Source: a virus (Duplodnaviria; Heunggongvirae; Uroviricota; Caudoviricetes). Taken from it: a stretch of DNA of 18,456 bases. The stretch covers positions 1 through 18,456 of IMG/VR virus record IMGVR_UViG_2713896795_000004; one strand, 5' to 3'. This document shows positions 1 through 17,172 of the stretch, in pieces. Under the pieces are notes generated by a model. That model was not told where the DNA came from, searched no databases, and saw only the letters and a list, made by a program, of their open reading frames with translations. Made by a program: the position numbers and the translations under genes. Every line of letters starts with the position of its first letter. Position 1 is the first letter of the stretch.

Positions 1-147
1 TCAAACACTCGCAAGCTCGTATTTGATCTTAGAAATAGATAACAACCAAACTTTGCCGAATTCCTCGCTATCGCTACGGAATCCCGCAAGCGTTCTCCCT
101 TCGCTTTGCTCGATCCAGTAGGTGTAGTTCTCATTACTACTATTCAT
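1..147 (-). CDS. hypothetical small protein (48 aa), uncertain
   Basis: Manual reverse-strand translation: ATG (complement of 145..147) to TGA (complement of 1..3), MNSSNENYTYWIEQSEGRTLAGFRSDSEEFGKVWLLSISKIKYELASV. GAGG motif 7 nt upstream of the ATG. Lies in the GC-richer left flank and is below the ORF-track size cut-off. No recognisable family. Confidence 0.2.
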   Translation of the reverse strand: MNSSNENYTYWIEQSEGRTLAGFRSDSEEFGKVWLLSISKIKYELASV

Positions 148-240
148 AGTGATTCCTCAAATATTCTGGGAGTTGGACGCGGCGACGAAGTGGAACGGGG
201 CGGCGGTGTCAGTCAGTACCGAACAATAAGGAAAAAGAAA

Positions 241-582
241 ATGAAATACATACACTCAATAATAAAAGATTGGGGATACAGTCATAACTATCACGATGCC
301 GTACTAAATCACTTTCCTAATCAGGGAATGTACATCTTTGCAAGTGGTGAACTATCTTTCATGTATGACTACTTCCATCATAGGTGGACTGAAAGAACTC
401 ATACAGAAGAAATAACACGTAAACTACTTACAGAGTTCACGGAAGAAATGATCTTTCAGGAATGTACATTATATGATGCAGAATTAGTTCAGAAGGTGCA
501 AAGAGAAATACTCAAACACCACAAAGGCCAAATCACTTATATATGGATACCAAATGAGAAACCTAAAAATCACATACAATAA
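241..582 (+). CDS. hypothetical protein (113 aa)
   Basis: Track ORF 106..582 begins at a TTG in GC-richer flank. The first ATG (241) follows AAGGA with about 10-nt spacing and coincides with the switch to AT-rich composition, so the start is placed at 241. No recognisable motifs. Confidence 0.45.
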   Translation: MKYIHSIIKDWGYSHNYHDAVLNHFPNQGMYIFASGELSFMYDYFHHRWTERTHTEEITRKLLTEFTEEMIFQECTLYDAELVQKVQREILKHHKGQITYIWIPNEKPKNHIQ

Positions 583-973
583 CCCACGAGGCTTGATATT
601 CAATGACCGAGTATTAGCCAGGCGTTATGCAGTCAACCGTAAAGGCATATTACTAAATAATACTATCAAATACGATCATCCCCCTGATTACTATCTAGGA
701 CTGAATGAGGCGGAATACTTCCAATTGTCCGTAGTGATGGGTGATCTGGACGAAATAATATTCATGTCAGACTGTATAATCAATGGAGTAAAAATCATGC
801 AAATAGAAATACTAAACAATAACCCACTAAATTTTAGAGCACGTATCAATGGTGGACTAGACTTATATATTCACCATAAAGATGGAGTTGTCGCAAGTCA
901 GAGAATCCCCAATATAGAGGCTATAAAGAGCTACGTAGCTGGTGGAATCCATAAGGACGTACAACGAACATAG
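554..973 (+). CDS. hypothetical protein (139 aa)
   Basis: ATG-initiated ORF overlapping the previous gene by 29 nt, suggesting translational coupling in one operon. No recognisable family. Confidence 0.45.
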   Translation: MRNLKITYNNPRGLIFNDRVLARRYAVNRKGILLNNTIKYDHPPDYYLGLNEAEYFQLSVVMGDLDEIIFMSDCIINGVKIMQIEILNNNPLNFRARINGGLDLYIHHKDGVVASQRIPNIEAIKSYVAGGIHKDVQRT

Positions 974-1442
974 AAGAGATTAAACGCATTCTAAGGGGCG
1001 GGCAGGACGTTATAGAGGAACTATCAGAAGATGAGAAACTACAGAAGAGTATCAATAAACATACTGATTCAATCGCTAAAGCAGCGAAAGCAAAAAAAAC
1101 ACGCAAGCCAAAAGCATAAAACAAAGAAGCCTCTCTACTGGTGGTTGTCTCATGCTGTAAATCGCCTGACAAATATTCATAGCTATATTGAGCATAAGGC
1201 ACACGCACACATAAAAGCGTATCTAAGGTAATTGATCGTCCGAATAATTACGGTACTGAATTTGAGTTCTCGAAACCAACCAACTATATCGGGGGTAATT
1301 TATAGTTTCATAGTTGCAGTAGTAGTTGGTGTACTATATGATTCTTTAGACGTACAAATAAAAATCCATTGATGAAGTATTGCAGTTTCAAAAAGAGTCT
1401 CAACAACTAATTCCTCACGGTAAATAACAGGAATAAGCCACA

Positions 1443-1972
<530 letters not shown>

Positions 1973-2038
1973 TAATGGAACGGTATTAATATGTTATGTG
2001 AAAGTTTAATAGTGGATTATGACAGTACTAATTACTGA

Positions 2039-2215
<177 letters not shown>

Positions 2216-2504
2216 TAATATATGAGATACTTTGAAGACCAAAAATTCACAATGGCAGTTGCGGTAAATAAGATTATTAAGGGAGTTTATGAGATTAAGA
2301 TGTTGTCTTTATCGATATAGACTTAGCAGGTGAAGCAGGAGACAAGCTAGATATACCTCCAAAGGAGGCAGAAACTATTTAGCTACTAAATGATTTAGTA
2401 CAAATTATAAAATAATAAGAAGAGGCTAAATTTTACTATTAATATTAAAATTAACTTGTAATATTAATAGAGATTATTCATTTAAAATAGTGAGAAATAT
2501 TTAT

Positions 2505-2574
2505 TAATGAGTAATGAGTAATGAGTAATGAGTAATGAGTAATGAGTAATGAGTAATGAGTAATGAGTAATGAG
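2505..2574. repeat. perfect heptanucleotide tandem repeat (TAATGAG)x10
   Basis: Read directly: ten uninterrupted copies of TAATGAG, 70 bp, in the non-coding region about 130 bp downstream of the 3' end of the OLD-like gene. Confidence 0.95.
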
Positions 2575-2662
2575 TATATATAAATAATGGATGTAATAAA
2601 GTAGATGTCATAAATGAGTTTTCTCTATATAATGTATAATTATCAAATTATATTTATTGTAT

Positions 2663-2690
2663 TATATGCCAGTACTAGTACTGGCATATA
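2663..2690. repeat. perfect 28-bp palindrome; possible bidirectional terminator or protein-binding site
   Basis: tatatgccagtactagtactggcatata is its own reverse complement. It sits 13 bp beyond the stop codon of the minus-strand OLD-like gene, flanked by A/T-rich sequence. Confidence 0.5.
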
Positions 2691-2702
2691 TGAATTTAAT
2701 AA

Positions 2703-4549
<1,847 letters not shown>

Positions 4550-4974
4550 TTATTTAATACCATTACCAGAGAGAGAATAAAAATAATATCTTCAAAACTG
4601 TGACATATGTTGTTCTTTTATGTTGATTGTTACATGGTTGATGGTTTTGTGTGTTGACTAATAGTTTTTCAGTAATTTATTTGATTAATATGACATATGG
4701 AAAAGTCATTGCGTACTGGGGTAAATACATCTTATAGAGTATTAATATGGTTTATTACTGTGAATACTGTAATGGAGTAAATCATTTATTTTCATTAGTA
4801 ATAGGTACTCCCGAAAATCTGGGTGATCGTGGAGTTTTCGCCGCGAATTATAAAAAATATCTATGAGATTTTTTTATAAGAACACGCAATATCAATAGCT
4901 AAAAGTAATAAGCACCGAAACATATATAAAATACCAATCAATTGAAAATGAATAAAAAGTGAATAGGAAATCAC

Positions 4975-5544
4975 ATGGCAAAAAATAAAGACGATGGAAC
5001 CCGTTACACATATACGGAAATTGCCGAAAGATTTGGCGTAGAAATTAGTACCGCTTCGCGTATCTGGTCTGGAAAAGGACTGGATATTAACTGGCCTAAA
5101 AAATTAGTGGATCAGTGGTTACTAGCGAACGTAATCGAACCTATGCGTAATGGCGATGTAAAAGGAATGATTCATAAAGCTACACTACGCAAACTAGAAG
5201 CAGAAGCAGACCTGAAAGAATTAGAACTACGTCAACAATCGGGTGAACTAATTCCCGTTGCAGTAGTACAGCAAACATTATCACAATACTTCTATCAATT
5301 AAGACAAGTATTAAGAAGTATTCCCACATCAAGTTATGTTGAACTATTTGAATCACAGGACGCATTAGAATTAAAAATTAAATTACAGGATAAAATAGAC
5401 CGCCAGTTAGAAGAGATTGGCAGCTATGAATATGAGGGAACATATGAAGAACAACTATCAGAAGATGATGAAGGTACTAACGAGGGCGGCGAAATCAATC
5501 CTACCACCGAAGAAACAACTACCAGCGGAATGGGTAGAGAATAA
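4975..5544 (+). CDS. terminase small subunit (Nu1-like, N-terminal HTH), 189 aa
   Basis: N-terminal HTH-like segment YTYTEIAERFGVEISTASRIW, coiled-coil middle, acidic C-terminus. Sits immediately upstream of and overlapping the large terminase. AGGAAA before the ATG. Confidence 0.6.
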   Translation: MAKNKDDGTRYTYTEIAERFGVEISTASRIWSGKGLDINWPKKLVDQWLLANVIEPMRNGDVKGMIHKATLRKLEAEADLKELELRQQSGELIPVAVVQQTLSQYFYQLRQVLRSIPTSSYVELFESQDALELKIKLQDKIDRQLEEIGSYEYEGTYEEQLSEDDEGTNEGGEINPTTEETTTSGMGRE

Positions 5545-7345
5545 CCTAGTCTTCCCAGACGGCGAGCTACAGGGGCAAAGGGTCAAATTATTTGAGTTCC
5601 AAAAAAAGCCCTTGAATGACATAGTAAATCCCCGTATTCGTAAAGTGGTACTCATGAGTAGTGCTCAACTTCTCAAAACAACTGTACTTCAGAATAGTAT
5701 GTACTACTTCCTGGCAAATGATCCAAGTAACATGATCTTTGCGGGTGCAACTGGCGGTACTACAAGTAAGTTCCGTACTGGTAAATGGCAGGCAGTCATA
5801 GAGGCATGTTCGGTACTAAAGAATCTAGTAAGTAATAAGAATGATAAGAACTTTACTAATAACGATAAGACACAACAAAATTTAGATGGTACTTTTACTT
5901 ACTTTCTAACATTGGGTAGTAGTGCACAACTTCGCGGCCTGACAGCACCTCGCATATTTCTTGATGAAATATCCAACGTGGACGCGAGCGGGGATGAAGG
6001 CAACCCCCTGAAGCTAGCAGAACAGCGTACAAAGGCTTTTAGTAATCCCCTTATTATGTGTTGTTCTACTCCCCTTGATGAACATGACCTGATTACACAA
6101 CAGTACGAACAAAGTAATAAACAGAAGTTTTATGTACCGTGTCCACACTGTAACCACTCTCACGAATTAGTTTTTGAAAACGTTAAGTTTGACTGGAAGA
6201 TTATAGAAGGCGGTCGCCGCCGTATTCCTGATGCCGACACTGCAAGGCTAGAATGTCCAAAGTGTAGTAATGAAATCACAGAAGCCGAACGTGTACGAAT
6301 GATTCGTAAAGGAGAATGGATTGCAACAGCACCAGAGATTAAGGATATAGCTGGCTATCATGTCTCCCGCTTGTACTCTCCTATCAACTCTATCAAATCA
6401 ATTGTTGCCGACTTTGCCGAAGCACATTATACATTTGACCTGGCATCATTCTATAACAACGTATTAGGACTGCCATATATTGATAAAGAGAATAGCGAGC
6501 ATGACTTAGTATTATTAGAGAATCTAAGAGATAGTGAAATTGATATTGAAAATATACCAGATGATGTACTAGGGATCGTAATGGGCGTGGACCAGCAGCT
6601 TGATAGGTTGGAAATAAGCACACTAGGAGTAAGTGAAAAGAATCTATATGTACTTGATCACCGTAGTATCTACTCAATTGACTGTACTAAAATCGAAGCC
6701 CCAGCATGGAATAAGTTAACGGCCTTTGCAAATCATCCATTTAAAACACGTTCAGGTAAACCATTGAAGGTACTAGCCGGATTTGTCGATAGTTCAAACG
6801 GCAACGCAACCAGTACCGTGTACCGTTATTGCTCTAACTCTACTATCTTTAAACCTATCAAGGGTGGTACATCAAATACTAACCCACTATTCAAAGGTAG
6901 TACGGCTGGTGGTCACTCCCTGATTAACCTTAACCTTAACGTTAACTTAGGCAAGACTAACGTTAGACAGTTATTAAACCGTGCTGTATCAGATAATGAA
7001 AATAGTAAGGAAGTACAGATTCACTTTAGCCATTCAGTACCAGATGATTACTTTATTCAGGTTACATCAGAGAAGCGAGTAATAAAGGCTGGGGCGTGGG
7101 TATGGGTGAAGAAGATTAGTAGTGCACGTAATGAAACCTTAGACTGTTTAAACTATGCATTAATATGTTTCCAGTGGTATCTATCTAAGTTAGGTAGTCA
7201 ACCATACCGCCAGTTAAGGGAATATAACGCTAAACAAAAAGAGAAAGCAGGACTAAATAAAGAAGTAAATACAGAAGAAGCACCAACTAAGCCAACTCCT
7301 AAGCGAGTAATAAGGCCGCGTAAGGGTGGTGGTTTCTTTAAATAA
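5417..7345 (+). CDS. terminase large subunit, lambda GpA family
   Basis: Recalled similarity to lambda gpA: PAEWVENNLVFP...FEFQKKPLN versus lambda TAVEWADANYYLP...LPFQRAIMN; Cys/His cluster YVPCPHCNHSHEL...CPKC versus lambda HVACPHCGEE; GVDQQLDRLEI versus GIDSQLDRYEM. The track start at 5417 is TTG; in-frame ATGs at 5426, 5432, 5444 and 5465 are alternatives, so the start is uncertain and overlaps the terS 3' end. Confidence 0.85.
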   Translation: MAAMNMREHMKNNYQKMMKVLTRAAKSILPPKKQLPAEWVENNLVFPDGELQGQRVKLFEFQKKPLNDIVNPRIRKVVLMSSAQLLKTTVLQNSMYYFLANDPSNMIFAGATGGTTSKFRTGKWQAVIEACSVLKNLVSNKNDKNFTNNDKTQQNLDGTFTYFLTLGSSAQLRGLTAPRIFLDEISNVDASGDEGNPLKLAEQRTKAFSNPLIMCCSTPLDEHDLITQQYEQSNKQKFYVPCPHCNHSHELVFENVKFDWKIIEGGRRRIPDADTARLECPKCSNEITEAERVRMIRKGEWIATAPEIKDIAGYHVSRLYSPINSIKSIVADFAEAHYTFDLASFYNNVLGLPYIDKENSEHDLVLLENLRDSEIDIENIPDDVLGIVMGVDQQLDRLEISTLGVSEKNLYVLDHRSIYSIDCTKIEAPAWNKLTAFANHPFKTRSGKPLKVLAGFVDSSNGNATSTVYRYCSNSTIFKPIKGGTSNTNPLFKGSTAGGHSLINLNLNVNLGKTNVRQLLNRAVSDNENSKEVQIHFSHSVPDDYFIQVTSEKRVIKAGAWVWVKKISSARNETLDCLNYALICFQWYLSKLGSQPYRQLREYNAKQKEKAGLNKEVNTEEAPTKPTPKRVIRPRKGGGFFK

Positions 7346-7356
7346 GGAAAAATAAA

Positions 7357-7848
7357 ATGGCAATAGTTCGCAAAGTAACCCTAAGAGGCGATATCTTTAA
7401 AGGCGAGACTATTACATTCGACTACCCCGCAGGATCGGAAATTGATTTGATTGATCCTAACGGGGTAAAGACTTCATACACATACCCTTTCCCAGCTATT
7501 GATACTAGTAACTGGGATGCAGGTGTCTGGACTGCAATTATTAACAGTACCGTAGCGTATGGCGTACAACAATTCGAAGTAATAGATCCAACTTCAAAGG
7601 CGTCCGAATATAACGACCTGATGCAAATCATTAAAGATATTGATCAGATCATCATGGACAGAATTAAAGGCGGTGGTGTACTAAGTCAATCAATCCAAAA
7701 TAAATCATTAACATATGAAAGTAGTGAAATACTTATGAAGTTACGCCCTGTTTATGTCAGTCGTGCAAATGATTTACTTTCGGATATGAAAGGCTTTAAT
7801 ACTGGATGCCCTATTAAATCAATTACTACATTTAGGAGATCTCGTTAA
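7357..7848 (+). CDS. hypothetical protein between terminase and portal (163 aa); possible head-completion or accessory head protein
   Basis: AAGGA RBS and ATG start; its stop overlaps the portal start (TAATG). Function inferred from position only (lambda has gpW at the equivalent place). Confidence 0.45.
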   Translation: MAIVRKVTLRGDIFKGETITFDYPAGSEIDLIDPNGVKTSYTYPFPAIDTSNWDAGVWTAIINSTVAYGVQQFEVIDPTSKASEYNDLMQIIKDIDQIIMDRIKGGGVLSQSIQNKSLTYESSEILMKLRPVYVSRANDLLSDMKGFNTGCPIKSITTFRRSR

Positions 7849-9350
7849 TGTTCGGATGGAATAAAAAGAAAGTAGAAGAACCTAAACAAAAAGTTTTAGT
7901 ACAGAAGCCAGTGAAGCTAATGAAGAACAACCCTATGAAGCGTGCAATGTCTTCCCTGAATCTAGGATCTTCTAGTCCTGTTATCTCCTTTGGTTTCACG
8001 GGTGGTAATCAGGCAGGTAATATTAACGCCATCATTAACCGTACTCTACCTGTTATGGTTGCCGTGAGTCGTGAACTCTCGATTAAGAATGGTATTGTTA
8101 AGAAATATGTTTCTACTAACTCAGCAGGTGTAACAGGTGCGGATGGCCTATACATTCGTCCATGTACTCACTCTTCTGATAGTGAACAGGTTAACCAGTC
8201 AATCGATAAACAATTAGAAGATGCCTTCTATGCATGGGCGGAAGATCCTAAAGCCTTTTCACGTTGCGGTACTCTGGATATTAGTACCTTCCAACGTCTA
8301 GTAGAACGTACTCGTTCAGTAGATGGAGATTGTTTCATTCGTATTCACACTAAACCAGGTGAACTACCACAGGTTGAGATCATCGATTCAATGCGTATCT
8401 CTACCTATGAGAACCAGCTACTACCATCAGGTAACTATATTAGTAATGGTATCGAATTTGATATTAATACTAACCGTCCTGTAGCGTACTGGGTAACACG
8501 TTATAACCCTATCATGTATAACTATATGATTGGAGAACGTGAACGCGTACCAGCAGATGAAATTCTACACCTGTTTCAACAGGACTACCCAACGCAGCAA
8601 CGCGGGATACCTGATGTACATTCCGGTACTGAAAAGTTAAAAGAGCTAGAAGAGTTTATGTCAGCGGCAATTACTTCCCGTAAGGTTGCAGCGTCCGCAA
8701 TGGCATTTATCACTAATCCAGATAGTGACGATGTTCAGCTACTGACTGATGACAGTGTTTCGTACTATGATCAAGACTATCTAAATCCGGCTGCAATCGT
8801 AGAACTACAAGCAGGACAAGATATTAAAACAGTAAACCCAACTCAAACCACAGATGGAATTGATGAGTTTATTAATAACCAATTAATGATGATTGCAATG
8901 GGCTTGGATATTACAAAACAATCACTAACATCAGATACTAGTAATGCTTCATTCAGTGCAGCAAAACTGACTGATAAATTACAACAATCAACATTTAAAA
9001 GCCGCACTAATGCTTTAATTGTTTCGGTACTAAAACCTCTTTATATTGCATGGCTAAAATCTGCAATGCTAAATAGTAGTACGTTAAGCAATTTAAATTT
9101 TAGTGATTTTAATAAATTAACCCATGCACAATATGTACAGACTCGTCAAATCTCCCTTGATCCATTAAAAGACCTTCAAACCGAAGTATTAGCAATTGAT
9201 AACGGTTTAAAGAGTAAGGCAATGGTAATTTCAGAGATGGGATACGATCCTGTTATCGTCATGGAAGAGATAAAAAAGGAAAACAAGGAAAATGGAATTG
9301 AACCTGAACAAGAACCAGATGAGGGCGATCAATCTAACGCAGATCAATAA
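7848..9350 (+). CDS. portal protein (lambda gpB-like), 500 aa
   Basis: Canonical position after the large terminase, appropriate size, AGGAGA RBS. Weak recalled similarity to the lambda gpB region around ...NPAAIVELQAGQDIKTV...MIAMGLDITKQSL. Acidic C-terminal tail. Confidence 0.7.
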   Translation: MFGWNKKKVEEPKQKVLVQKPVKLMKNNPMKRAMSSLNLGSSSPVISFGFTGGNQAGNINAIINRTLPVMVAVSRELSIKNGIVKKYVSTNSAGVTGADGLYIRPCTHSSDSEQVNQSIDKQLEDAFYAWAEDPKAFSRCGTLDISTFQRLVERTRSVDGDCFIRIHTKPGELPQVEIIDSMRISTYENQLLPSGNYISNGIEFDINTNRPVAYWVTRYNPIMYNYMIGERERVPADEILHLFQQDYPTQQRGIPDVHSGTEKLKELEEFMSAAITSRKVAASAMAFITNPDSDDVQLLTDDSVSYYDQDYLNPAAIVELQAGQDIKTVNPTQTTDGIDEFINNQLMMIAMGLDITKQSLTSDTSNASFSAAKLTDKLQQSTFKSRTNALIVSVLKPLYIAWLKSAMLNSSTLSNLNFSDFNKLTHAQYVQTRQISLDPLKDLQTEVLAIDNGLKSKAMVISEMGYDPVIVMEEIKKENKENGIEPEQEPDEGDQSNADQ

Positions 9351-11154
9351 TGCAATTGATGAAGCTGATAGAACTGTAGAACTCTCCTTTGCCTCAGAAA
9401 TTCCAGTAGTACGCGACATTAAAGGGACTCTCTATAATGAGATCCTTTTATGCAGTCCTGAAAACGTAGACTTAAGCCGTCTTAATGACGGTGCACCTGT
9501 ACTAGTAGAACATGATGCAATGCGTCAAGTTGGTATAGTTGAGAATGCTCGCGTAGATATGGATAAAGTTTGCCGTGCTACTGTACGTTTTAGTGCACTT
9601 GGAACAGCAAATACTATCTTCGGTATGATCTTAGAAGGTATTCGCCCTAAAGTGTCCGTAGGTTATAACATCTTAGATTATCGTATTGATGGTAATAACC
9701 TAATTGTTTCAAAATGGGAACCCTATGAAATATCCAGTGTTTCGCAGCCAGCGGACAACTCAGTTGGGGTGGGAAGATCACTAAATAGTAATGAAGAAAT
9801 CACACTAGAGGATCTACCCAAAATGGAGCAAGAACAAAAAGAAGAACTAGTACAGGAAGTTGAAGTTATTAAGGAAGTACAGGAAGAAGAAGTACAAGCC
9901 GAAGTAATCGAAGAAGAAGTAGTAGTTCAGGAAGAATCAGTAGAAGTAGTAGAAGAACCGGAAGTAATTGAGGAAGTACAGGAAGTACAACCTGAATTAG
10001 TAGAAGAACGTTCTATTGCAATTACTGATATTCAAGAAAGCATAAATAAAGAAGTAGAAGCAAATCGTATTCGCGAACTTCAATCTATTTCTTTGGTACT
10101 AGGTGTTAGTACAGAAGAAGCAATTAACAACGGTGTAAGCGTAGAAGACTTTAAACGCTCACTAAATAAAGATAATAAATCAATTGATAAGGATATCAAA
10201 AAAATGGAAAAGAAATCTCTAATTAACGAAGGTCTACGTAGTCTAAAAGGTGAAACTCATGATCTAGAAACCTTCGAAAAAGGTGCACGCGGTTATAATG
10301 CAGACCTAAACGCTATGGTACGTTCTACCGCTGATACTACTTCTACTGTAACCGCAGCAGGTCTAGTAAAAGAAGAACTAGCAGACGCGTATATTCGTCA
10401 ACTACTCGCAGCTACTGTACTGGGCCAACTAGATGTAACTGTTTTTGGTGGCCTAGCGGGACGCGGCAATTTCTCTATCCCACGTGCTAAAGGTATGAAC
10501 CCAGCAGCTAAGTTTTACAATGAAGATGAAGCAGTATCCGACGGCTTCGAAACCTTCGATAAGATCACTCTAAAGCCTCGCATGTTCGCAGCAGGTATCA
10601 AGATCACTAAAGCAATGCTACTAAGCAACGCAGCTACCGAACGTTATGTTACCGACGAGCTATTACGCCAATGTTCTAACGGTCTAGAGTCCGCAGTATT
10701 TGCACAAATCGCTACTACTGTACCAGTACAGCAAACCGCTGTATCCGGTCAAGTATCCGAAGCAGACGTACAGAAAGCTATCGAAGCTATCTCCGCGAAA
10801 AACGTTGATATCAATCGTTGTGTTGCTATCGTGCATCCTTCTATGCTCGCTAAACTACGTCAAACCGCGGTATTGAATAACACCGCAGCAGTTGCAATGG
10901 TAGCTGGTCATCGTTATGACATGTGGCTAAACGACGAAGTACGCGTAATTGAATCTACTTTCGTAGCAGCAGATACTATTCTAATTGGTGACTTCTCTGA
11001 ACTAATTTTCGCTAACTGGAACGAAGGTCAAGAACTAGATTTTGATGATACTACTTACCGTGCAGCACAAACTATCGCTATCAGAAGTTTTCAGTACCTC
11101 GACGTAGCTATTGCACACGAAGAAGGATTTGTACTACTACAACTAAAACCATAA
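9292..11154 (+). CDS. fused prohead protease / acidic scaffold-like linker / HK97-fold major capsid protein (620 aa)
   Basis: N-terminal domain with candidate catalytic His in LVEHD (His74, nt 9511..9513) and Ser-containing segments. Acidic E/V/Q-rich repeat linker (aa 178-240). C-terminal domain with HK97-type MCP pattern: VAIVHPSMLAKL...MWLNDEVRVIESTFVAADTILIGDFSE compared with recalled HK97 gp5 IVLNPRDWHNI...MWGLPVVPT...FTVGGFD. Start may instead be the ATG at 9319. Confidence 0.7.
   Translation: MELNLNKNQMRAINLTQINNAIDEADRTVELSFASEIPVVRDIKGTLYNEILLCSPENVDLSRLNDGAPVLVEHDAMRQVGIVENARVDMDKVCRATVRFSALGTANTIFGMILEGIRPKVSVGYNILDYRIDGNNLIVSKWEPYEISSVSQPADNSVGVGRSLNSNEEITLEDLPKMEQEQKEELVQEVEVIKEVQEEEVQAEVIEEEVVVQEESVEVVEEPEVIEEVQEVQPELVEERSIAITDIQESINKEVEANRIRELQSISLVLGVSTEEAINNGVSVEDFKRSLNKDNKSIDKDIKKMEKKSLINEGLRSLKGETHDLETFEKGARGYNADLNAMVRSTADTTSTVTAAGLVKEELADAYIRQLLAATVLGQLDVTVFGGLAGRGNFSIPRAKGMNPAAKFYNEDEAVSDGFETFDKITLKPRMFAAGIKITKAMLLSNAATERYVTDELLRQCSNGLESAVFAQIATTVPVQQTAVSGQVSEADVQKAIEAISAKNVDINRCVAIVHPSMLAKLRQTAVLNNTAAVAMVAGHRYDMWLNDEVRVIESTFVAADTILIGDFSELIFANWNEGQELDFDDTTYRAAQTIAIRSFQYLDVAIAHEEGFVLLQLKP
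9823..10011. repeat. low-complexity acidic coding repeat (GAAGAA/GTAGAA-rich) inside the capsid ORF
   Basis: Translates to MEQEQKEELVQEVEVIKEVQEEEVQAEVIEEEVVVQEESVEVVEEPEVIEEVQEVQPELVEE; the DNA is built from imperfect gaagta/gaagaa units. Confidence 0.7.
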
Positions 11155-11166
11155 GGTACTTTCACT

Positions 11167-11487
11167 ATGAGGCATTTTACTAGCAATCAAATTGATTCTA
11201 CTTTTCTAAATGCCTTTGGTGAACCTATCACAATTAACGGGGCGACGTTCAAAGCTATTTTGGACAATCGCCCCGTAGTCATAGATAGCGGTACTGAAGG
11301 ACTAGTAGAAAGTACAGAAACATTTCTATCAGTGAAGACTGACGATCTAACTACTTTCAGTATCGCAATTGATTCCGAAGTAGTAGTACAGGGTACAAAT
11401 TACACTGTATACAATATCTATAATGATTTGAGCGGTATTTGTGAAGTTTACATAAGACCATCAACAATTAATAATTACGGGTGGTAA
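11167..11487 (+). CDS. hypothetical protein (106 aa); head-tail connector/adaptor candidate by position
   Basis: ATG ORF directly after the capsid gene, in the size range of HK97-like head-tail connector proteins. No motif evidence. Confidence 0.4.
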   Translation: MRHFTSNQIDSTFLNAFGEPITINGATFKAILDNRPVVIDSGTEGLVESTETFLSVKTDDLTTFSIAIDSEVVVQGTNYTVYNIYNDLSGICEVYIRPSTINNYGW

Positions 11488-11488
11488 T

Positions 11489-11884
11489 ATGGGACTATTA
11501 AGCGACGTACAAAAGACAATTAGAACCAGTCTGAATAATATCATGCCAATTCGAAAGGCAATGAATATCCAGGCAGGTAAAGATCTATTCATCTTAGTAT
11601 CAGTAAATCAGACATATTCACCAACCAACTTTGGCACACAACGCCAGACAGGAACATTCGATTTCCAATTTCTCCTAGTACCGGAACCATCAGTACAACT
11701 TCCCGCCGATTCCTACGGTACTATATTCGAATACTTCCGTACTAATACTATTAAAGAGTTTAAAGATAATAACGTCACTCTACTTTCTTATGAGTTTCAA
11801 GATAGCGAACAGGTAACAGATCCAACTACTGGCTATCAATCGTTATCGTTTGCAATAAATATTGTAGCAACTCAAAAACCATAA
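11489..11884 (+). CDS. hypothetical protein (131 aa); head-tail joining candidate by position
   Basis: ATG 1 nt after the previous stop (tightly coupled). Position-based call only. Confidence 0.4.
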   Translation: MGLLSDVQKTIRTSLNNIMPIRKAMNIQAGKDLFILVSVNQTYSPTNFGTQRQTGTFDFQFLLVPEPSVQLPADSYGTIFEYFRTNTIKEFKDNNVTLLSYEFQDSEQVTDPTTGYQSLSFAINIVATQKP

Positions 11885-11896
11885 GGAATATAGATA

Positions 11897-11924
11897 ATGA
11901 GTGATAATATTTTTACTGGTAGTG
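11897..11924 (+). pseudogene. 5' stub of a gene cut by IS2 (9 codons, MSDNIFTGS)
   Basis: AAGGAA RBS at 11883..11888, ATG at 11897, reading frame runs straight into the IS2 terminal inverted repeat at 11925. Confidence 0.35.
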
Positions 11925-11935
11925 TGGATTTGCCC

Positions 11936-12841
11936 CTATATTTCCAGACACCTGTTATCACTTAACCCATTACTGGCCCGCTGCCGTAGATATTCCCGTG
12001 GCGAGCGATAACCCAGTGCACTATGCGGATGCCATTCGTTATAATGCTCGAACGCCTCTGCAAGGTTCTTTGCTGCCGTTAACCCGTCTGGTTTGGGCAT
12101 GATACTGATGTAATCACGCTTTATCGTTTTCACGAAGCTCTCTGCTATGCCGTTACTCTCCGGACTCCGCACCGCCGTGTTCTTCGGTTCAAGTCCCAAC
12201 ATCCGGGCGAACTGGCGTGTTTCATTAGCCCGGTAGCATGAACCATTATCCGTCAGCCACTCCACTGGAGATGTCGGAAGCTCGCTGCCGAAGCGGCGTT
12301 CCACCGCTCCCAGCATGACGTCCTGTACTGTTTCACTGTCGAAGCCGCCCGTAGTGACCGCCCAGTGCAGTGCCTCACGGTCACAGCAGTCCAGCGCGAA
12401 CGTGACTCGCAGTTTTTCTCCGTTATCACAGCGGAACTCGAACCCGTCAGAGCACCATCGTTGATTGCTTTCTTTCACGGCCACTTTGCCAGTATGTGCC
12501 CGTTTCGATGGCGGTACAGCGGTTTTTCGCTCAAGCAACAGCGCATTCTGGCGCATGATCCGGTAAACACGTTTGGCATTGATAGCAGGCATACCATCAA
12601 GTTCGGCCTGTCTGCGAAGCAGCGCCCATACCCGACGATAACCATACGTGGGCAGCTCTCCGATAACATGGTGTATACGGAGAAGCACATCCGTATCATC
12701 TGAGTGACGGCTGCAGCGACCATCTTTCCAGTCATCGGTTCGTCTGAGAATGACGTGCAACTGCGCACGCGACACCCGGAGACAACGGCTGACTAAGCTT
12801 ACTCCCCATCCCCGGGCAATAAGGGCGCGTGCGCTATCCAC
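11936..12841 (-). CDS. insD: IS2 transposase OrfB (InsD), DDE integrase-like catalytic domain, 301 aa
   Basis: Matches recalled InsD sequence. Overlaps insC in the -1 frame at the AAAAAAG slippery site, so the InsCD fusion would arise by programmed frameshift. GTG start. Confidence 0.9.
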
Positions 12842-13164
12842 TTTTTTGCACGCCCATATTCAACGGCTTCTTTAAGGAGTTCATTTTCCATCGTTTTTTT
12901 GCCGAGCAGGCGCTGAAGTTCTTTAATCTGCTTCATGGCAGCAGCAAGTTCAGAGGCAGGAACGACCTGTTCTCCTGCGGCCACAGCAGTAAGACTTCCC
13001 TCCTGGTATTGCTTGCGCCATAGAAATAACTGGCTGGCTGCCACACCGTGTTGCCGGGCAACAAGGGAGACCGTCATTCCCGGTTCAAAGCTCTGCTGAA
13101 CAATAGCGATCTTTTCCTGTGTAGTACGCCGTCTGCGTTTCTCCGGTCCTAAGACATCAATCAT
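12799..13164 (-). CDS. insC: IS2 transposase OrfA (InsC), HTH DNA-binding protein, 121 aa
   Basis: Translation from the ATG at 13164 matches recalled InsC ([56 protein letters not shown]...). The track ORF extends further 5' to an upstream alternative start. Confidence 0.9.
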
Positions 13165-13256
13165 CTGTTCTCCAATGACTAGTCTAAAAACTAGTATTAA
13201 GACTATCACTTATTTAAGTGATATTGGTTGTCTGGAGATTCAGGGGGCCAGTCTAG

Positions 13257-13784
13257 AAAGGTAAATGCATCCCACGAGATTTAAAGGTTAACGAAACAAA
13301 CGCTGACTATCTTTTCCGTAAGTTCGGTGAACTTGAATCAAAACTCAACGAGCAGCGTGAGTATTACGAGGGCGTTATCTCGGATGGGAGTAAGCGTATT
13401 GCTGAACTGGAGAAAAGCGAAGAGCAACTCATCAACGAGCGTGACCATGCTGAGTCTGCTTTAGCTGATATGTACTTTGCAGCAACCGGTAACAGGCCGG
13501 AGTGGAGCAACTGGTTCGGCTTTTCAGATGCTGTCGATGCCGTGGTTGACAGAATAGCTGATTTAGAAGCTAAACAGCCATCGCCGGTAGTGCCGGATAA
13601 TGCATCAGGGTCGCTTGCTTATGCTTACAAAGAGCTTACGCCTGAGATTATGCGCGGTCATATCGCTGTATTCGAGCGATATGGAATAGCCCCAAACGAT
13701 AGCATTACCACAATTCAGGCACTGCGAATCGCGCTGGATGGTATAGAGCGGAGCAACGCCATGCTTCAGGGGAAAGGAGAGTGA
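13257..13784 (+). pseudogene. N-terminally truncated coiled-coil protein of the lambdoid early-accessory region (possibly Ea22-like), cut by IS2
   Basis: Reading frame is open from the first base after IS2 (stop TAG lies inside the IS2 end at 13254..13256) through 13784, with no start codon near the IS boundary. Coiled-coil-like LESKLNEQREYYEGVISDGSKRIAELEKSEEQLINE. The Ea22 assignment is from memory and weak. Confidence 0.45.
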
Positions 13785-13785
13785 T

Positions 13786-14301
13786 ATGGCGTTAACACAC
13801 AGCGAACTCTGTCAGATTGCGTACAAGTTCCTTAAGCGCAACGGGTTCAAGGTTTGTTTTCATGACCGCTTTATAGCTGTAACCAGTACCGGAGAACAGC
13901 CAGATGCTATGGGATTCAGAAATTCAGCATCATGCCTGATAGAGGCGAAGTGTTCTCGTGCTGACTTGTTGGCAGATAGAAAAAAGCGTTTTCGTAAAAA
14001 TCCGTCTCTTGGAATGGGCGACTGGCGATTCTTTATTAGTGAGCCGGGGATTATTTCAATTGAGGATTTACCACCTGGCTGGGGATTACTTCACGTTGTT
14101 AACGGAAGAGTACGGAAAGTACATGGGTGGCCAAAGGGCAATTGCTGTTGGGGTAATCCTGACGATAAGCCATTTACTGGAAATAAGCAGGTTGAATGCG
14201 ATTACATGTTATCTGCATTAAGGCGCATGGAGTTGAGAGGGCACCTTAATGAAATATATGACGGTGTAATTGTTAATAAGAAAGAAGGAAACGCGGCATG
14301 A
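13786..14301 (+). CDS. hypothetical protein with PD-(D/E)xK-like nuclease motif (171 aa)
   Basis: AAAGGAGAG RBS, ATG 1 nt after the previous stop. Motif ...EQPDAMGF...(12 aa)...LIEAKCSRADL resembles the PD...(D/E)xK core of restriction-endonuclease-fold proteins. Family not assigned. Confidence 0.5.
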   Translation: MALTHSELCQIAYKFLKRNGFKVCFHDRFIAVTSTGEQPDAMGFRNSASCLIEAKCSRADLLADRKKRFRKNPSLGMGDWRFFISEPGIISIEDLPPGWGLLHVVNGRVRKVHGWPKGNCCWGNPDDKPFTGNKQVECDYMLSALRRMELRGHLNEIYDGVIVNKKEGNAA

Positions 14302-15137
14302 CCACTATTACCAAAGAGCGACTGCTGACAATCAAGCAGTGGCGCGAAACATACGGACCTGGTAGCAACGTTGTACTGCCAGCAGAAGAAGCGGAAGAAC
14401 TGGCACGAATTGCTCTGGCATCGCTGGAAGCAAAACCAATAGGTGCTTTCCACATTGCAGAACAGCAGGTCGATGGCACAAGTGACTACATCAAGGATGG
14501 GGAGTGGCCTATTGATAACGGGATAATTGAAGTATACGCCGCTCCGCCAGTGCCGGTAGTACCTGGGGAAATTGCTGATGATTTAATGGAGAAATTACCG
14601 AAAAGTGATGCATGGGCTAATGGGTTTCGTGGTGGCTGGAACGCCTGCCGCGCAGTCATGCTTCAGTCCGGAAACTTTCGGAAAATCCCGGAAGCGTCAA
14701 CCAGCTCTCCGGTAACTCCGCCTCTTTTGCCTGGTGGTTTCACCATTGAGGATGCGAAGGAGTTACATGAAGACCTGGTTCGCAGCCACATAAGCCAGGC
14801 TTTAAGTGGCGAAAAGATGAAAAAGAAAGATCGCGAGGCTGATTTGCGCTGGATTCATGGCGTAATAGTTCAGGCTGCGTGGTTTGTAAAGGCATCACTG
14901 GAGCAGAATGCACTATCGGGCAACTCTCCGGTAACTCCGGATAGTTGGATAAGCTGTAGTGAGCGAATGCCGGAAGAAACGGGTGACATTATTGTTGTTT
15001 CGGATGGCATTGTAATGTCAGGGATTTCTTATTCTCGTCGTGACGGGTTCTATATGGCCGCATTGGAGTACGACGACGACGAACCAATTGACGGTGTAAC
15101 CCACTGGATGCCGCTGCCAGAACCGCCGCAGGGGTGA
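14298..15137 (+). CDS. phage protein with C-terminal DUF551-like domain (279 aa)
   Basis: ATGA start/stop overlap with the previous gene. C-terminal SERMPEE...VTHWMPLPEPP matches the recalled DUF551 signature (ER[ML]PE ... W-x-PLP-x-PP) common in lambdoid early-region accessory genes. Confidence 0.55.
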   Translation: MTTITKERLLTIKQWRETYGPGSNVVLPAEEAEELARIALASLEAKPIGAFHIAEQQVDGTSDYIKDGEWPIDNGIIEVYAAPPVPVVPGEIADDLMEKLPKSDAWANGFRGGWNACRAVMLQSGNFRKIPEASTSSPVTPPLLPGGFTIEDAKELHEDLVRSHISQALSGEKMKKKDREADLRWIHGVIVQAAWFVKASLEQNALSGNSPVTPDSWISCSERMPEETGDIIVVSDGIVMSGISYSRRDGFYMAALEYDDDEPIDGVTHWMPLPEPPQG

Positions 15138-15203
15138 AATGATGCTTGGCCTGAAGTATTTTATGTAATTGGTATTGCTATATTTTTATCTGGGGATAAA
15201 CGA

Positions 15204-15446
15204 ATGTTCTCTCTGATTCAACGTGGTCAGATATACACCGATAGCGCTGGCTATCCAGTAAAAATCATTCGTAGTACTGATCACTCAGTATTCTTCAAGA
15301 GGATGGATGGCTATCCTGGAAGAGTGTGCATCAGAAAATTCAATAATTTATTCGAACACATTGATCACAGAGAATATCACCAGATCCTGGCTGAAACAGA
15401 GCAGGAGAACCATCTGAAAAAATTACGTGCCATGCAAAGGAGATAA
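15204..15446 (+). CDS. hypothetical lambdoid early-region protein (80 aa)
   Basis: ATG ORF in the position occupied by ea-type genes in lambda; no motif evidence. Confidence 0.45.
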   Translation: MFSLIQRGQIYTDSAGYPVKIIRSTDHSVFFKRMDGYPGRVCIRKFNNLFEHIDHREYHQILAETEQENHLKKLRAMQRR

Positions 15447-15526
15447 ACCGGTAAAGGTGTTCGCGATAAAGGTGAATATCGGCAATGAATAACAATCCTC
15501 GAACTCGCGGGGATTTCTTTTATCTG

Positions 15527-15553
15527 AACTCGCTACGGCGAGTTTTGTTTTAT
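15527..15553 (+). terminator. putative intrinsic terminator
   Basis: 7-bp stem AACTCGC / GCGAGTT with 4-nt loop TACG, followed by TTGTTTTAT. Confidence 0.35.
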
Positions 15554-15564
15554 GGAGATGATAA

Positions 15565-15732
15565 ATGCACTTCCGAGTCACAGGTGAATGGAATGGAGAG
15601 CCATTCAACAGAGTTATCGAGGCAGAGAACATCAACGACTGCTATGACCACTGGATGCTGTGGGCGCAGATAGCACATGCAGACGTAACCAATATTCGAA
15701 TTGAAGAACTGAAAGAACACCAATCCGCCTGA
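15565..15732 (+). CDS. small hypothetical protein (55 aa), same size and spacing as the small ORF just upstream of xis in phage lambda
   Basis: Manual translation MHFRVTGEWNGEPFNRVIEAENINDCYDHWMLWAQIAHADVTNIRIEELKEHQSA. GGAGA RBS 7 nt before the ATG; ends 39 nt before xis. Below the ORF-track size cut-off. Confidence 0.45.
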   Translation: MHFRVTGEWNGEPFNRVIEAENINDCYDHWMLWAQIAHADVTNIRIEELKEHQSA

Positions 15733-15747
15733 TGGCGGCTTTTTCTT
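15725..15747 (+). terminator. putative intrinsic terminator overlapping the stop of the 55-aa ORF
   Basis: CCGCC-TGAT-GGCGG hairpin followed by CTTTTTCTT. Confidence 0.35.
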
Positions 15748-15771
15748 GCGTGTAATTGCGGAGACTTTGCG

Positions 15772-15990
15772 ATGTACTTGACACTTCAGGAGTGGAACGC
15801 ACGCCAGCGACGCCCAAGAAGCCTTGAAACAGTTCGTCGATGGGTGCGCGAATGCAGGATATTCCCTCCTCCGGTTAAGGATGGAAGAGAGTATCTGTTC
15901 CACGAATCAGCGGTAAAGGTTGACTTAAATCGACCAGTAACAGGTAGCCTTTTGAAGAGGATCAGAAATGGGAAGAAGGCGAAGTCATGA
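15772..15990 (+). CDS. xis: excisionase Xis (lambda type), 72 aa
   Basis: MYLTLQEWNARQRRPRSLETVRRWVRECRIFPPPVKDGREYLFHESAVKVDLNRPVTGSLLKRIRNGKKAKS matches recalled lambda Xis. Overlaps the int start as in lambda. Confidence 0.95.
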   Translation: MYLTLQEWNARQRRPRSLETVRRWVRECRIFPPPVKDGREYLFHESAVKVDLNRPVTGSLLKRIRNGKKAKS

Positions 15991-17038: not shown

Positions 17039-17133
17039 TGATTTTATTTTGACTGATAGTGACCTGTTCGTTGCAACAAATTGATAAGCAATGCTTTTTT
17101 ATAATGCCAACTTAGTATAAAAAAGCAGGCTTC
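17039..17133. other. attL: lambda P' arm plus 15-bp core (reverse complement of GCTTTTTTATACTAA at 17112..17126) joined to the bacterial B arm
   Basis: Sequence TTTTATTTTGACTGATAGTGACCTGTTCGTTGCAACAAATTGATAAGCAATGCTTTTTTATAATGCCAACTTAGTATAAAAAAGCAGGCTTCA matches the recalled lambda attL/P' arm, with the core directly followed by host sequence leading into ybhC. Confidence 0.9.
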
Positions 17134-17172
17134 AACGGATTCATTTTTCTATTTCATAGCCCGGAGCAACCT

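What the first reader, a model, noticed from the sequence alone, without database searches (positions are those of the whole stretch)
2663..2690. Perfect 28-bp palindrome 13 bp beyond the stop of the OLD-like gene
tatatgccagtactagtactggcatata is exactly self-complementary (14-bp arms with no spacer), which is unusual to find by chance. Its position fits a bidirectional transcription terminator between convergent transcripts. A perfect palindrome with no loop, containing AGTACT at its centre, equally fits a dimeric DNA-binding-protein site or a restriction or recombination target.
Basis: seen in the sequence. Interest (0 to 1): 0.35.

Follow-up and report, generated by a model that had tools for sequence, protein, structure and literature searches.

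The report
Hairpin ending a phage defence gene
The perfect 28-bp palindrome is real, but it is most likely an ordinary RNA hairpin marking the 3' end of a prophage-borne OLD anti-phage nuclease gene, as found after almost every phage OLD gene examined.

Summary
The palindrome is confirmed: 2663-2690, 14-nt arms, no spacer, 12 nt past the stop of a 606-aa class-1-type OLD nuclease gene, and far beyond chance.

Its 20-nt core is single-copy. In viral contigs, metagenomes and 5,426 E. coli genomes it occurs only directly after this OLD gene.

The deciding evidence is comparative. Of 28 distinct phage or prophage OLD loci, 24 carry a stable hairpin within 90 nt of the stop (median -16.4 kcal/mol). 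Control windows inside the genes reach this in 8 of 56. The hairpin sequences are unrelated, and several are canonical intrinsic terminators. This fits an RNA hairpin better than a sequence-specific protein, restriction or recombination site.

The window's hairpin has a 12-bp stem, a CUAG loop and about -16 kcal/mol. It has no U-tract on either strand, so it is not a canonical or bidirectional intrinsic terminator. A G-free, C-containing tract, (CUCAUUA)x10, follows on the OLD transcript. I infer Rho-assisted termination with the hairpin as the stable 3' end.

The nearest + strand genes are pseudogene remnants, so the "convergent transcripts" idea is weak.

Side observation: AGTACT is strongly enriched in some related phages and completely avoided in this one's backbone.

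Ordinary feature; low interest.

The parts
2663..2690 (.). Perfect 28-bp palindrome. As RNA on either strand it folds into a 12-bp stem with a 4-nt loop (CUAG), about -16 kcal/mol.
   Evidence: sequence and chance test. (fold: z -4.4 on the OLD-sense strand, -3.7 on the + strand). (28/28 identical to L003, while the adjacent non-coding flank has 63 matches, 14 mismatches and 9 gaps).
2691..2702 (-). 12-nt spacer between the OLD stop codon and the hairpin.
   Evidence: In most of the other OLD loci the hairpin starts 0-47 nt after the stop, and up to 55 nt.
2703..4523 (-). 606-aa OLD-family nuclease gene (ABC-type ATPase plus TOPRIM). It is a single gene, i.e. the class-1 layout.
   Evidence: Pfam; PADLOC Old 1.5e-74; 23.9% identity to P2 Old over 84% of its length.
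2505..2576 (-). (TAATGAG)x10.3 tandem repeat. On the OLD-sense RNA it reads (CUCAUUA)n, a G-free, C-containing tract 87-158 nt past the hairpin. It is a candidate Rho-utilisation (rut)-like tract (inferred).
   Evidence: TRF: period 7, 10.3 copies, 100% matches. (9.3 copies in L001, absent in L003). (C 18-20 and G 0-1 per 80 nt).
4524..4851 (-). Region 5' of OLD that travels with the gene into other prophage backbones. It presumably holds the OLD promoter, which I did not identify.
   Evidence: homology to L003, L004 and L018 spans 2563-4851 at 92.4%; no convincing -35/-10 match close to the start codon.

Best explanation
The palindrome is the 3'-end hairpin of an independently transcribed accessory ('moron'-type) OLD defence gene in a defective E. 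coli prophage. The OLD mRNA is read on the - strand. Twelve nucleotides after the stop codon it folds into a 12-bp stem with a CUAG loop. Because no U-tract follows, I infer that the hairpin is not an efficient stand-alone intrinsic terminator. It most likely acts in two ways. It may pause or partly terminate RNA polymerase. Mainly, it serves as the stable 3' end to which 3'-to-5' exonucleases trim the transcript after Rho-dependent termination in the untranslated, G-free, C-containing tract that follows. Because the sequence is a palindrome, the same hairpin forms in + strand RNA and can also limit antisense read-through into OLD. Shown here: the position, stability and conservation of the hairpin, and its recurrence with unrelated sequences after other OLD genes. 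Inferred: the role of Rho and exonucleases, and any effect on + strand transcripts. The complete absence of a spacer needs only that the 4-nt loop be self-complementary (1 chance in 16).
For: The hairpin is stable on both strands (-16.1 and -16.8 kcal/mol; at most 1 of 200 shuffles folds as well). Close orthologues at 62-86% aa identity from seven other lineages have unrelated hairpins 0-37 nt after the stop, with z from -3.4 to -6.8. L009, L010/L011 and L012 have U-tracts, i.e. canonical terminators. Across 28 distinct OLD loci including P2-type ones, 24 have a hairpin of -10 kcal/mol or better within 90 nt of the stop (median -16.4). Control windows inside the genes reach this in 8 of 56 (median -7.25). 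The window's value (-15.3, 12 nt after the stop) is typical. L010 versus L012 differ by a U-A to U.G change that keeps pairing only in the OLD-sense RNA. The palindrome is 28/28 identical between the window and L003, while the adjacent non-coding flank is about 73% identical. In L003 it is extended to 30 bp. The core is single-copy and always follows this OLD gene. OLD is an accessory gene at a variable spot divergent from terS: it is absent from the otherwise homologous prophage L002 and present in unrelated backbones L003/L004. The OLD-sense RNA 40-160 nt past the hairpin has C 18-20 and G 0-1 per 80 nt. In E. coli, Rho-dependent 3' ends fold into terminator-like stem-loops that typically lack U-tracts (PMC13613805, citing Dar and Sorek 2018). 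P2 old has the same layout: - strand, next to cosR, its own transcript starts, and a hairpin 19 nt after the stop.
Against: There are no transcript data. There is no U-tract on either strand, and the consensus scan does not call the palindrome. The heptamer tract is absent from the L003 lineage, where the C over G excess is weaker, so it cannot be essential. In L001/L019 the one substitution gives a C.A mismatch in the OLD-sense RNA but a G.U pair in the + sense RNA, which does not favour the OLD strand. The half-site CAGTACTA recurs in the window more often than expected. A strong hairpin after a gene is expected for almost any transcription unit, so the comparative test shows the kind of element, not its efficiency.
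Confidence: 0.65

Rival explanations
1. It is an efficient, factor-independent bidirectional intrinsic terminator separating convergent transcripts.
For: It is a symmetric, stable hairpin between a block of + strand ORFs and the - strand OLD gene. The + sense tail UGAAUUUAAU has 5 U in 10. Some orthologues have true U-tract terminators.
Against: The U-tract criterion fails on both strands (2 T in the 10 nt after the stem on the OLD-sense strand). The nearest + strand coding sequences are pseudogene remnants ending near 2200. The hairpin abuts OLD, not the + strand genes. Orthologues often have co-directional downstream neighbours.
Confidence: 0.12
2. It is a DNA-level site: an operator for a dimeric DNA-binding protein, or a target of an AGTACT-recognising (ScaI-type) enzyme. 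In this reading it is built from two inverted, overlapping CAGTACTA half-sites.
For: CAGTACTA occurs 7 times in the window against 0.57 expected (0 of 200 shuffles), and all 7 AGTACT sites have these flanks. AGTACT is under clear DNA-level selection in this phage family: enriched in some members and absent from this backbone. P2 old's 3' hairpin also contains CAGTACTA.
Against: Orthologous OLD genes keep a hairpin but not the sequence. No regulator gene travels with the cassette 2563-4851, and the site is at the 3' end of the gene, not at a promoter. (C)AGTAC(TA)-type oligomers are generally over-represented in the window, which raises the chance of these flanks to about 0.26-0.36 per site. 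None of the other roughly 20 OLD lineages besides P2 has the 8-mer near the stop.
Confidence: 0.08
3. It has no selected function. It would be a quasi-palindrome made perfect by template-switch mutation and carried along with OLD.
For: The differences between lineages all concern how perfect the palindrome is: A/G at 2666, and T/A at 2662 giving 28 versus 30 bp. Template switching is known to perfect inverted repeats in E. coli (own knowledge).
Against: It is conserved 28/28 next to a flank that is about 73% identical. The positional recurrence of strong hairpins after 24 of 28 OLD genes argues for selection on the structure.
Confidence: 0.08
4. It belongs to a + strand product. This could be the stem-loop of a short antisense RNA started at the promoter-like ATGTCA-17-TATAAT (2605-2633), or codons of a 32-aa hydrophobic ORF (2614-2712) that overlaps the OLD stop.
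For: That promoter-like site is the best match in 1400-5600, at 10 of 12. The ORF stays open in L003 despite an in-frame 9-nt deletion. The L001 substitution keeps G.U pairing only in the + sense RNA.
Against: Promoter-like matches are fewer than in shuffles of this AT-rich region (10 versus 22.8), and the hexamers are degraded in L003. There is no Shine-Dalgarno sequence, and the ATG lies inside the putative promoter. AT-rich DNA yields hydrophobic ORFs by default. There is no Rfam match.
Confidence: 0.04
5. It is a recombination or mobility site: a cassette boundary, an attC- or REP-like element, a telomere-resolution site or cos.
For: The OLD cassette sits in different prophage backbones. 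Perfect spacer-less palindromes are typical of telomere-resolution sites (own knowledge).
Against: The homology between backbones runs through the palindrome (2563-4851), so it is not at a junction. It is single-copy. It is intact inside integrated prophages that use a lambda-type or serine integrase elsewhere. I found no protelomerase or integron integrase in the window or the loci examined. Related terminases go with unrelated hairpins, so it is not cos.
Confidence: 0.03

Closest known systems
Stem-loops at Rho-dependent transcript 3' ends in E. coli (Dar and Sorek 2018, as summarised in PMC13613805)
   Same: A stable hairpin just past the stop codon, with folding energy like that of intrinsic terminators, no U-tract, and a C-rich, G-poor untranslated tract nearby.
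   Different: Neither Rho dependence nor the 3' end has been measured here. The rut-like tract lies downstream of the hairpin and is missing in one lineage.
Canonical Rho-independent (intrinsic) terminators, including bidirectional ones
   Same: A hairpin with a G+C-containing stem and a 4-nt loop directly after a gene. Orthologues L009-L012 have true examples at the same position.
   Different: No U-tract on either strand, an AU-rich outer stem, and not called by the consensus scan.
Phage moron or accessory cassettes, such as the P2 old-tin locus and lambda bor
   Same: An accessory defence gene of lower G+C, opposite in orientation to the phage structural genes and next to the terminase/cos end. 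It is present or absent among related phages and is followed by a hairpin.
   Different: The OLD promoter was not identified. P2 old is co-transcribed with tin, whereas here OLD is the only gene of the cassette.
REP/BIME extragenic palindromes that stabilise upstream mRNA
   Same: An extragenic palindrome immediately 3' of a gene that could block 3' exonucleases.
   Different: REPs are multi-copy families. This sequence is single-copy, in 7 of 5,426 E. coli genomes, and always with OLD.

Membership tests
Rho-independent (intrinsic) terminator | Stable stem-loop (loop of 3-8 nt) shortly after the stop codon | tested here: met
   12-bp stem with a 4-nt loop, -16.1 kcal/mol, starting 12 nt after the stop.
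Rho-independent (intrinsic) terminator | U-tract (at least 5 U in about 8 nt) directly after the stem | tested here: not met
   The OLD-sense tail AUACAAUAAA has 2 U. The + sense tail UGAAUUUAAU has 4 U in the best 8-nt window. The scan gives no hit at the palindrome.
Bidirectional terminator between convergent genes | Intact convergent genes whose 3' ends flank the hairpin, with A- and U-tracts on the two sides | tested here: not met
   The nearest + strand sequences are pseudogene remnants ending near 2200, and there are no tracts.
Stem-loop 3' end of a Rho-dependent transcript | Hairpin without a U-tract, plus a C-rich, G-poor, unstructured untranslated RNA nearby | tested here: met
   C 18-20 and G 0-1 per 80 nt at 40-160 nt past the hairpin; hairpin as.
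Stem-loop 3' end of a Rho-dependent transcript | 3' ends at the hairpin that depend on Rho (bicyclomycin-sensitive read-through) | not testable with these tools
   Needs Term-seq or 3'-RACE with and without bicyclomycin.
Phage moron / accessory cassette | Gene absent from otherwise homologous phages and present in unrelated backbones | tested here: met
   L002 lacks 1020-4831. L003, L004 and L018 share only 2563-4851 at high identity.
Phage moron / accessory cassette | Own promoter and expression from the prophage | not testable with these tools
   No convincing -35/-10 match was found. Transcript data are needed.
Class 1 OLD nuclease (neighbouring gene) | N-terminal ABC-type ATPase plus C-terminal TOPRIM, as a single gene without a helicase or retron partner | tested here: met
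   Pfam AAA_15 plus OLD-like_TOPRIM and PADLOC Old. No adjacent UvrD-like or RT gene appears among the ORFs. The class definition is taken from PMC10568477.
REP/BIME or other repeated extragenic palindrome | Many copies per genome | tested here: not met
   One copy in the window. It occurs only with OLD in 7 of 5,426 E. coli genomes, 1 viral contig and 2 metagenome contigs.
Operator of a dimeric DNA-binding protein | Sequence (not just symmetry) conserved with a cognate regulator, located at a promoter | tested here: not met
   Orthologues have unrelated sequences. The site is at the 3' end of the gene, and the cassette holds no regulator.
Telomere-resolution site, attP, attC or cos | A cognate enzyme gene adjacent, or the site at an element or junction boundary | tested here: not met
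   The palindrome is intact inside integrated prophages. Homology runs through it, and related terminases go with unrelated hairpins.

The most novel reading that the evidence does not exclude
The palindrome could be a double, inverted site (CAGTAC-TA-GTACTG) for an unknown factor that recognises AGTACT/GTACT-type sequences. That hexamer is under strong and opposite DNA-level selection in this phage family: about 8-fold enriched through unusual codon pairs in some members, and completely avoided in this phage's backbone. The same 8-mer, CAGTACTA, sits in the hairpin after P2 old. A variant of this reading is that the RNA hairpin, with its paired CAG/CUG, is recognised by OLD itself, because P2 OLD cuts tRNA stems at paired CNG motifs (PMC12445682). 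That would give autoregulation.
Probability: 0.06. Interest if true: 0.6.

Novelty: new member of a known kind. Interest (0 to 1): 0.15.

Why it matters
It matters little by itself. It delimits the 3' end of a prophage-borne OLD defence cassette, which helps when annotating or cloning the unit. It also shows that phage OLD genes as a group are followed by strong hairpins. If the hairpin-plus-rut arrangement is confirmed, it would be one more case of Rho-assisted 3'-end formation on AT-rich horizontally acquired DNA. The side observation may deserve its own look: AGTACT is enriched or purged at the codon level in related phages. It points to an unidentified sequence-specific pressure, restriction or something else, on this phage family.

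Tried and rejected
1. Repeated element: I searched the 20-nt core in viral contigs, metagenomes and E. coli genomes and found only OLD-linked copies.

2. Known RNA family: Rfam at E<=1 gives nothing near the site.

3. Mosaic junction, att site or cos: homology to other backbones runs through the palindrome. The prophages are integrated elsewhere, and the hairpin varies independently of the terminase.

4. Half-site operator idea: the CAGTACTA recurrence is real. It is weakened by the general excess of (C)AGTAC(TA) oligomers. Sites 1879 and 2023 are not conserved in L003.

5. A link between OLD 3' ends and CAGTACTA: it is found in P2 but in none of the other roughly 20 lineages. After multiple testing, p is about 0.08.

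6. A paired CNG motif as an OLD recognition signal: it is present here and in P2, but it also appears in many G+C-rich stems by inspection of the sequences. It is too low in information to test.

7. VSP-repair-like origin of the AGTACT excess: one-substitution neighbours are not depleted.

8. LexA box: the half-sites are in the wrong order (CAGTA...TACTG rather than CTG-N10-CAG), judged by inspection.

9. Small + strand ORF or antisense RNA: the evidence is weak.

10. Literature searches for AGTACT/GTAC enrichment in phages and for Eco255I gave nothing useful.

Full report
**Observation.** The sequence at 2663-2690 is TATATGCCAGTACTAGTACTGGCATATA. It is a perfect palindrome with 14-nt arms and no spacer and occurs once in the window even with 3 mismatches allowed. 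It is the only zero-spacer palindrome in the window with arms of 7 nt or more. In 300 dinucleotide-preserving shuffles the longest arm reached 11 nt, and usually 6-8. Twelve nucleotides to its right lies the stop codon (TAG, 2705-2703) of a 606-aa - strand ORF, 2703-4523. That ORF matches Pfam AAA_15 plus OLD-like_TOPRIM and the PADLOC 'Old' model at 1.5e-74. It is 23.9% identical to phage P2 Old over 84% of its length.

**Context.**
- The window is E. coli-type DNA.
- Positions 1-11924 are part of a prophage. It holds small accessory ORFs, the OLD gene, TerS (4975-5544), a gpA-type TerL (5417-7345), a portal and a capsid.
- About 11925-13250 is IS2. Next comes a lambda-type int/xis segment, then ybhC.
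- A related prophage, L002 (about 86% identity), shares 45-1019 and 4832-11924 but carries other cargo in place of 1020-4831.
- Conversely, seven complete E. coli genomes and one metagenome contig carry 2563-4851 at 92.4% identity. This segment holds the palindrome, OLD and 328 bp upstream. It sits in a different prophage that has a serine recombinase and only 37%-identical terminase genes; in L004 the prophage abuts a truncated yegD.
- OLD is thus an exchangeable accessory gene. It lies divergent from terS, and this synteny holds in nearly all orthologous loci.
- P2 old has the same layout: - strand, at the right genome end next to cosR, with its own transcript starts. The P2 old locus is a known hotspot for defence genes (PMC10568477).
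- G+C is 0.30-0.35 across OLD, against 0.37-0.45 in the structural genes.

**Is the palindrome found elsewhere?** The 20-nt core TGCCAGTACTAGTACTGGCA occurs in 1 viral contig, 2 metagenome contigs and 7 of 5,426 complete E. coli genomes. In every case it lies directly after this OLD gene. It is not a repeated element. There are three variants:
- the window's perfect 28-mer;
- L001/L019, with A2666 changed to G;
- L003/L004/L018, with T2662 changed to A, which extends the perfect palindrome to 30 bp.

Between the window and L003 the palindrome is 28/28 identical. The adjacent 86 nt of non-coding DNA show 63 matches, 14 mismatches and 9 gap positions. The sequence is therefore constrained within this lineage.

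**What the comparison with other OLD genes shows.**
- Orthologues at 62-86% aa identity came from viral contigs and from Mangrovibacter, Citrobacter, Erwinia and Serratia genomes.
- All carry a hairpin 0-37 nt after the stop, but the sequences are unrelated to the palindrome and to each other.
- Seven of eight lineages fold far better than shuffles, with z from -3.4 to -6.8 and 0 of 200 shuffles as stable. Only L016 is weak.
- L009, L010/L011 and L012 have U-tracts and are textbook intrinsic terminators.
- L010 and L012 differ by a U-A to U.G change that preserves pairing only in the OLD-sense RNA.
- I extended the sample with an alignment-based scan to P2-type Old genes, giving 28 distinct loci.
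- Of these, 24 have a hairpin of -10 kcal/mol or better within 90 nt after the stop (median -16.4). The same measure on 90-nt windows inside the genes gives 8 of 56 (median -7.25).
- The window's hairpin (-15.3 kcal/mol in that measure, 12 nt after the stop) is typical.
- Conservation of a structure at a position, without conservation of sequence, is what an RNA-level 3'-end element predicts. A sequence-specific protein, restriction or recombination site does not predict it.

**Mechanism.**
- On either strand the RNA forms a 12-bp stem with a CUAG loop, at -16.1 and -16.8 kcal/mol.
- There is no U-tract. The OLD-sense tail is AUACAAUAAA and the + sense tail is UGAAUUUAAU. The consensus scan does not call the site. 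It fails a defining feature of intrinsic and bidirectional terminators.
- On the OLD-sense RNA, nucleotides 40-160 past the hairpin contain 18-20 C and 0-1 G per 80 nt. This is largely due to the (CUCAUUA)x10 array. Such composition is associated with Rho-utilisation sites.
- In E. coli, Rho-dependent 3' ends are reported to fold into terminator-like stem-loops that typically lack U-tracts (PMC13613805, citing Dar and Sorek 2018).
- I therefore infer three steps: translation stops, the hairpin forms, and Rho terminates in the untranslated tract. Exonucleases then trim back to the hairpin, which defines and protects the OLD mRNA 3' end. Some direct pausing or termination at the hairpin is also possible.
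- This model is inferred, not shown. The heptamer array is absent in the L003 lineage, so it cannot be essential.
- The symmetric hairpin would also form in + strand RNA and could limit antisense transcription into OLD. However, the nearest + strand coding sequences are remnants: a methyltransferase C-terminus with an internal stop (1838-2032), and a truncated homologue of an L003 gene (2012-2194). Orthologues have co-directional downstream neighbours as often as convergent ones.
- The zero-spacer perfection needs only a self-complementary 4-nt loop (1 chance in 16). It may have been sharpened by template-switch mutation (own knowledge).

**Rivals.**
- A DNA-level site keeps some weight because CAGTACTA, the inner half-site, occurs 7 times in the window against 0.57 expected, and all seven AGTACT sites have these flanks.
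- This is weakened in three ways. (C)AGTAC(TA)-type oligomers are generally over-represented in the phage part of the window. The single sites at 1879 and 2023 are not conserved in L003. There is no regulator in the cassette.
- P2 old's own 3' hairpin (AGCACAGTACTAAACC...GGCTGTGCT) also contains CAGTACTA. None of the other roughly 20 lineages does, so after multiple testing this is about p = 0.08.
- P2 OLD cleaves tRNA anticodon stems at paired CNG motifs (PMC12445682). Both hairpins contain a paired CAG/CUG. That motif is too common in G+C-containing stems to be informative.
- I considered and rejected junction, att, cos, attC, REP and telomere-resolution readings.
- A + strand small RNA or a 32-aa ORF across the palindrome has only weak support.

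**Side finding.** AGTACT, which occurs twice at the centre of the palindrome, is under DNA-level selection in this phage family.
- In loci L006, L008, L009, L011, L012 and L017 it is about 8-fold over-represented (91 observed, 11.3 expected). CAGTAC and AGTACT are the top two of all hexamers (z about 23 in the five-locus set that omits L008).
- It lies in two reading frames. More than half of the Ser-Thr dipeptides in L006 and L011 are encoded AGT-ACT.
- Synonymous-codon shuffles confirm the enrichment: L006 15 versus 3.7, L011 13 versus 2.4, L017 8 versus 2.6, with 0 of 300 shuffles reaching the observed count.
- The same shuffles confirm complete avoidance in L002 (0 versus 7.7) and in this window's structural genes (0 versus 4.7; no shuffle reached 0).
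- Six of the window's seven AGTACT sites lie in the accessory island 1443-4523.
- The avoidance looks like restriction avoidance. The enrichment is unexplained.

**Verdict.** The feature is real and non-random, and it belongs to the OLD transcription unit. It is best described as a non-canonical, U-tract-less terminator or 3'-end hairpin of a phage accessory defence gene. That makes it a new member of a well-known kind and of low intrinsic interest.

Noticed in passing
window 2505-2576: A perfect heptamer tandem repeat, (TAATGAG)x10.3. L001 has 9.3 copies and the L003 lineage has none, so the array is recent and its length varies. On the OLD-sense RNA it is a G-free CUCAUUA tract. It has stop codons in all three + strand frames.
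   Followed up: partly
L006, L008, L009, L011, L012, L017 (enriched); L002 and window 4900-11924 (avoided): AGTACT is about 8-fold enriched in the backbone genes of some related phages, through unusual codon pairs (AGT-ACT, GTA-CTN). It is completely absent from L002 and from this window's structural genes. Both effects are significant against synonymous-codon shuffles. GTAC/GTACT is moderately enriched family-wide. The cause is unknown.
   Followed up: partly
window 1453, 1879, 2023, 2670, 2676, 3834, 15272: All seven AGTACT sites in the window sit in the same 8-mer, CAGTACTA (7 versus 0.57 expected). Six lie in the accessory island 1443-4523. The site at 2023 is itself a small inverted repeat, CAGTActaatTACTG.
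   Followed up: partly
L020 (phage P2) 2062-2096, - strand: P2 old is followed, 19 nt after its stop, by a hairpin (AGCACAG...CTGTGCT, then TTTACCC) that contains the same 8-mer, CAGTACTA. The old-tin genes are nevertheless annotated as one mRNA.
   Followed up: partly
window 1838-2194: Two pseudogene remnants on the + strand. One is the C-terminal part of a phage DNA methyltransferase (phrog_3820) with an internal stop. The other is a truncated homologue of a 94-aa L003 protein.
   Followed up: partly
window about 11925-13250 and 13252-18456: An IS2 copy truncates the phage structural module after the head-tail genes. It is followed by a lambda-type int/xis/ea22 segment and the host gene ybhC (the lambda attachment region). 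The 'prophage' is therefore a composite, defective element. L004 also has IS2 cutting its head genes.
   Followed up: no
window 2614-2712 (+): A 32-aa hydrophobic ORF ([32 protein letters not shown]) runs through the palindrome and overlaps the OLD stop. It stays open in L003 despite a 9-nt in-frame deletion. It has no Shine-Dalgarno sequence, and its ATG lies inside a promoter-like site.
   Followed up: partly
window 2433-2470: AT-only inverted repeats (CTATTAATATTAAAA / TTGTAATATTAATAG, 5-nt gap) lie in the roughly 340-bp gene-free, about 20% G+C stretch between the + strand remnants and the palindrome.
   Followed up: no
window 4832-4851: Homology to L002 begins at 4832 and homology to the L003-type cassette ends at 4851. 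This shared breakpoint sits in a short G+C-rich patch about 125-140 bp upstream of terS and may be at or near cos.
   Followed up: no
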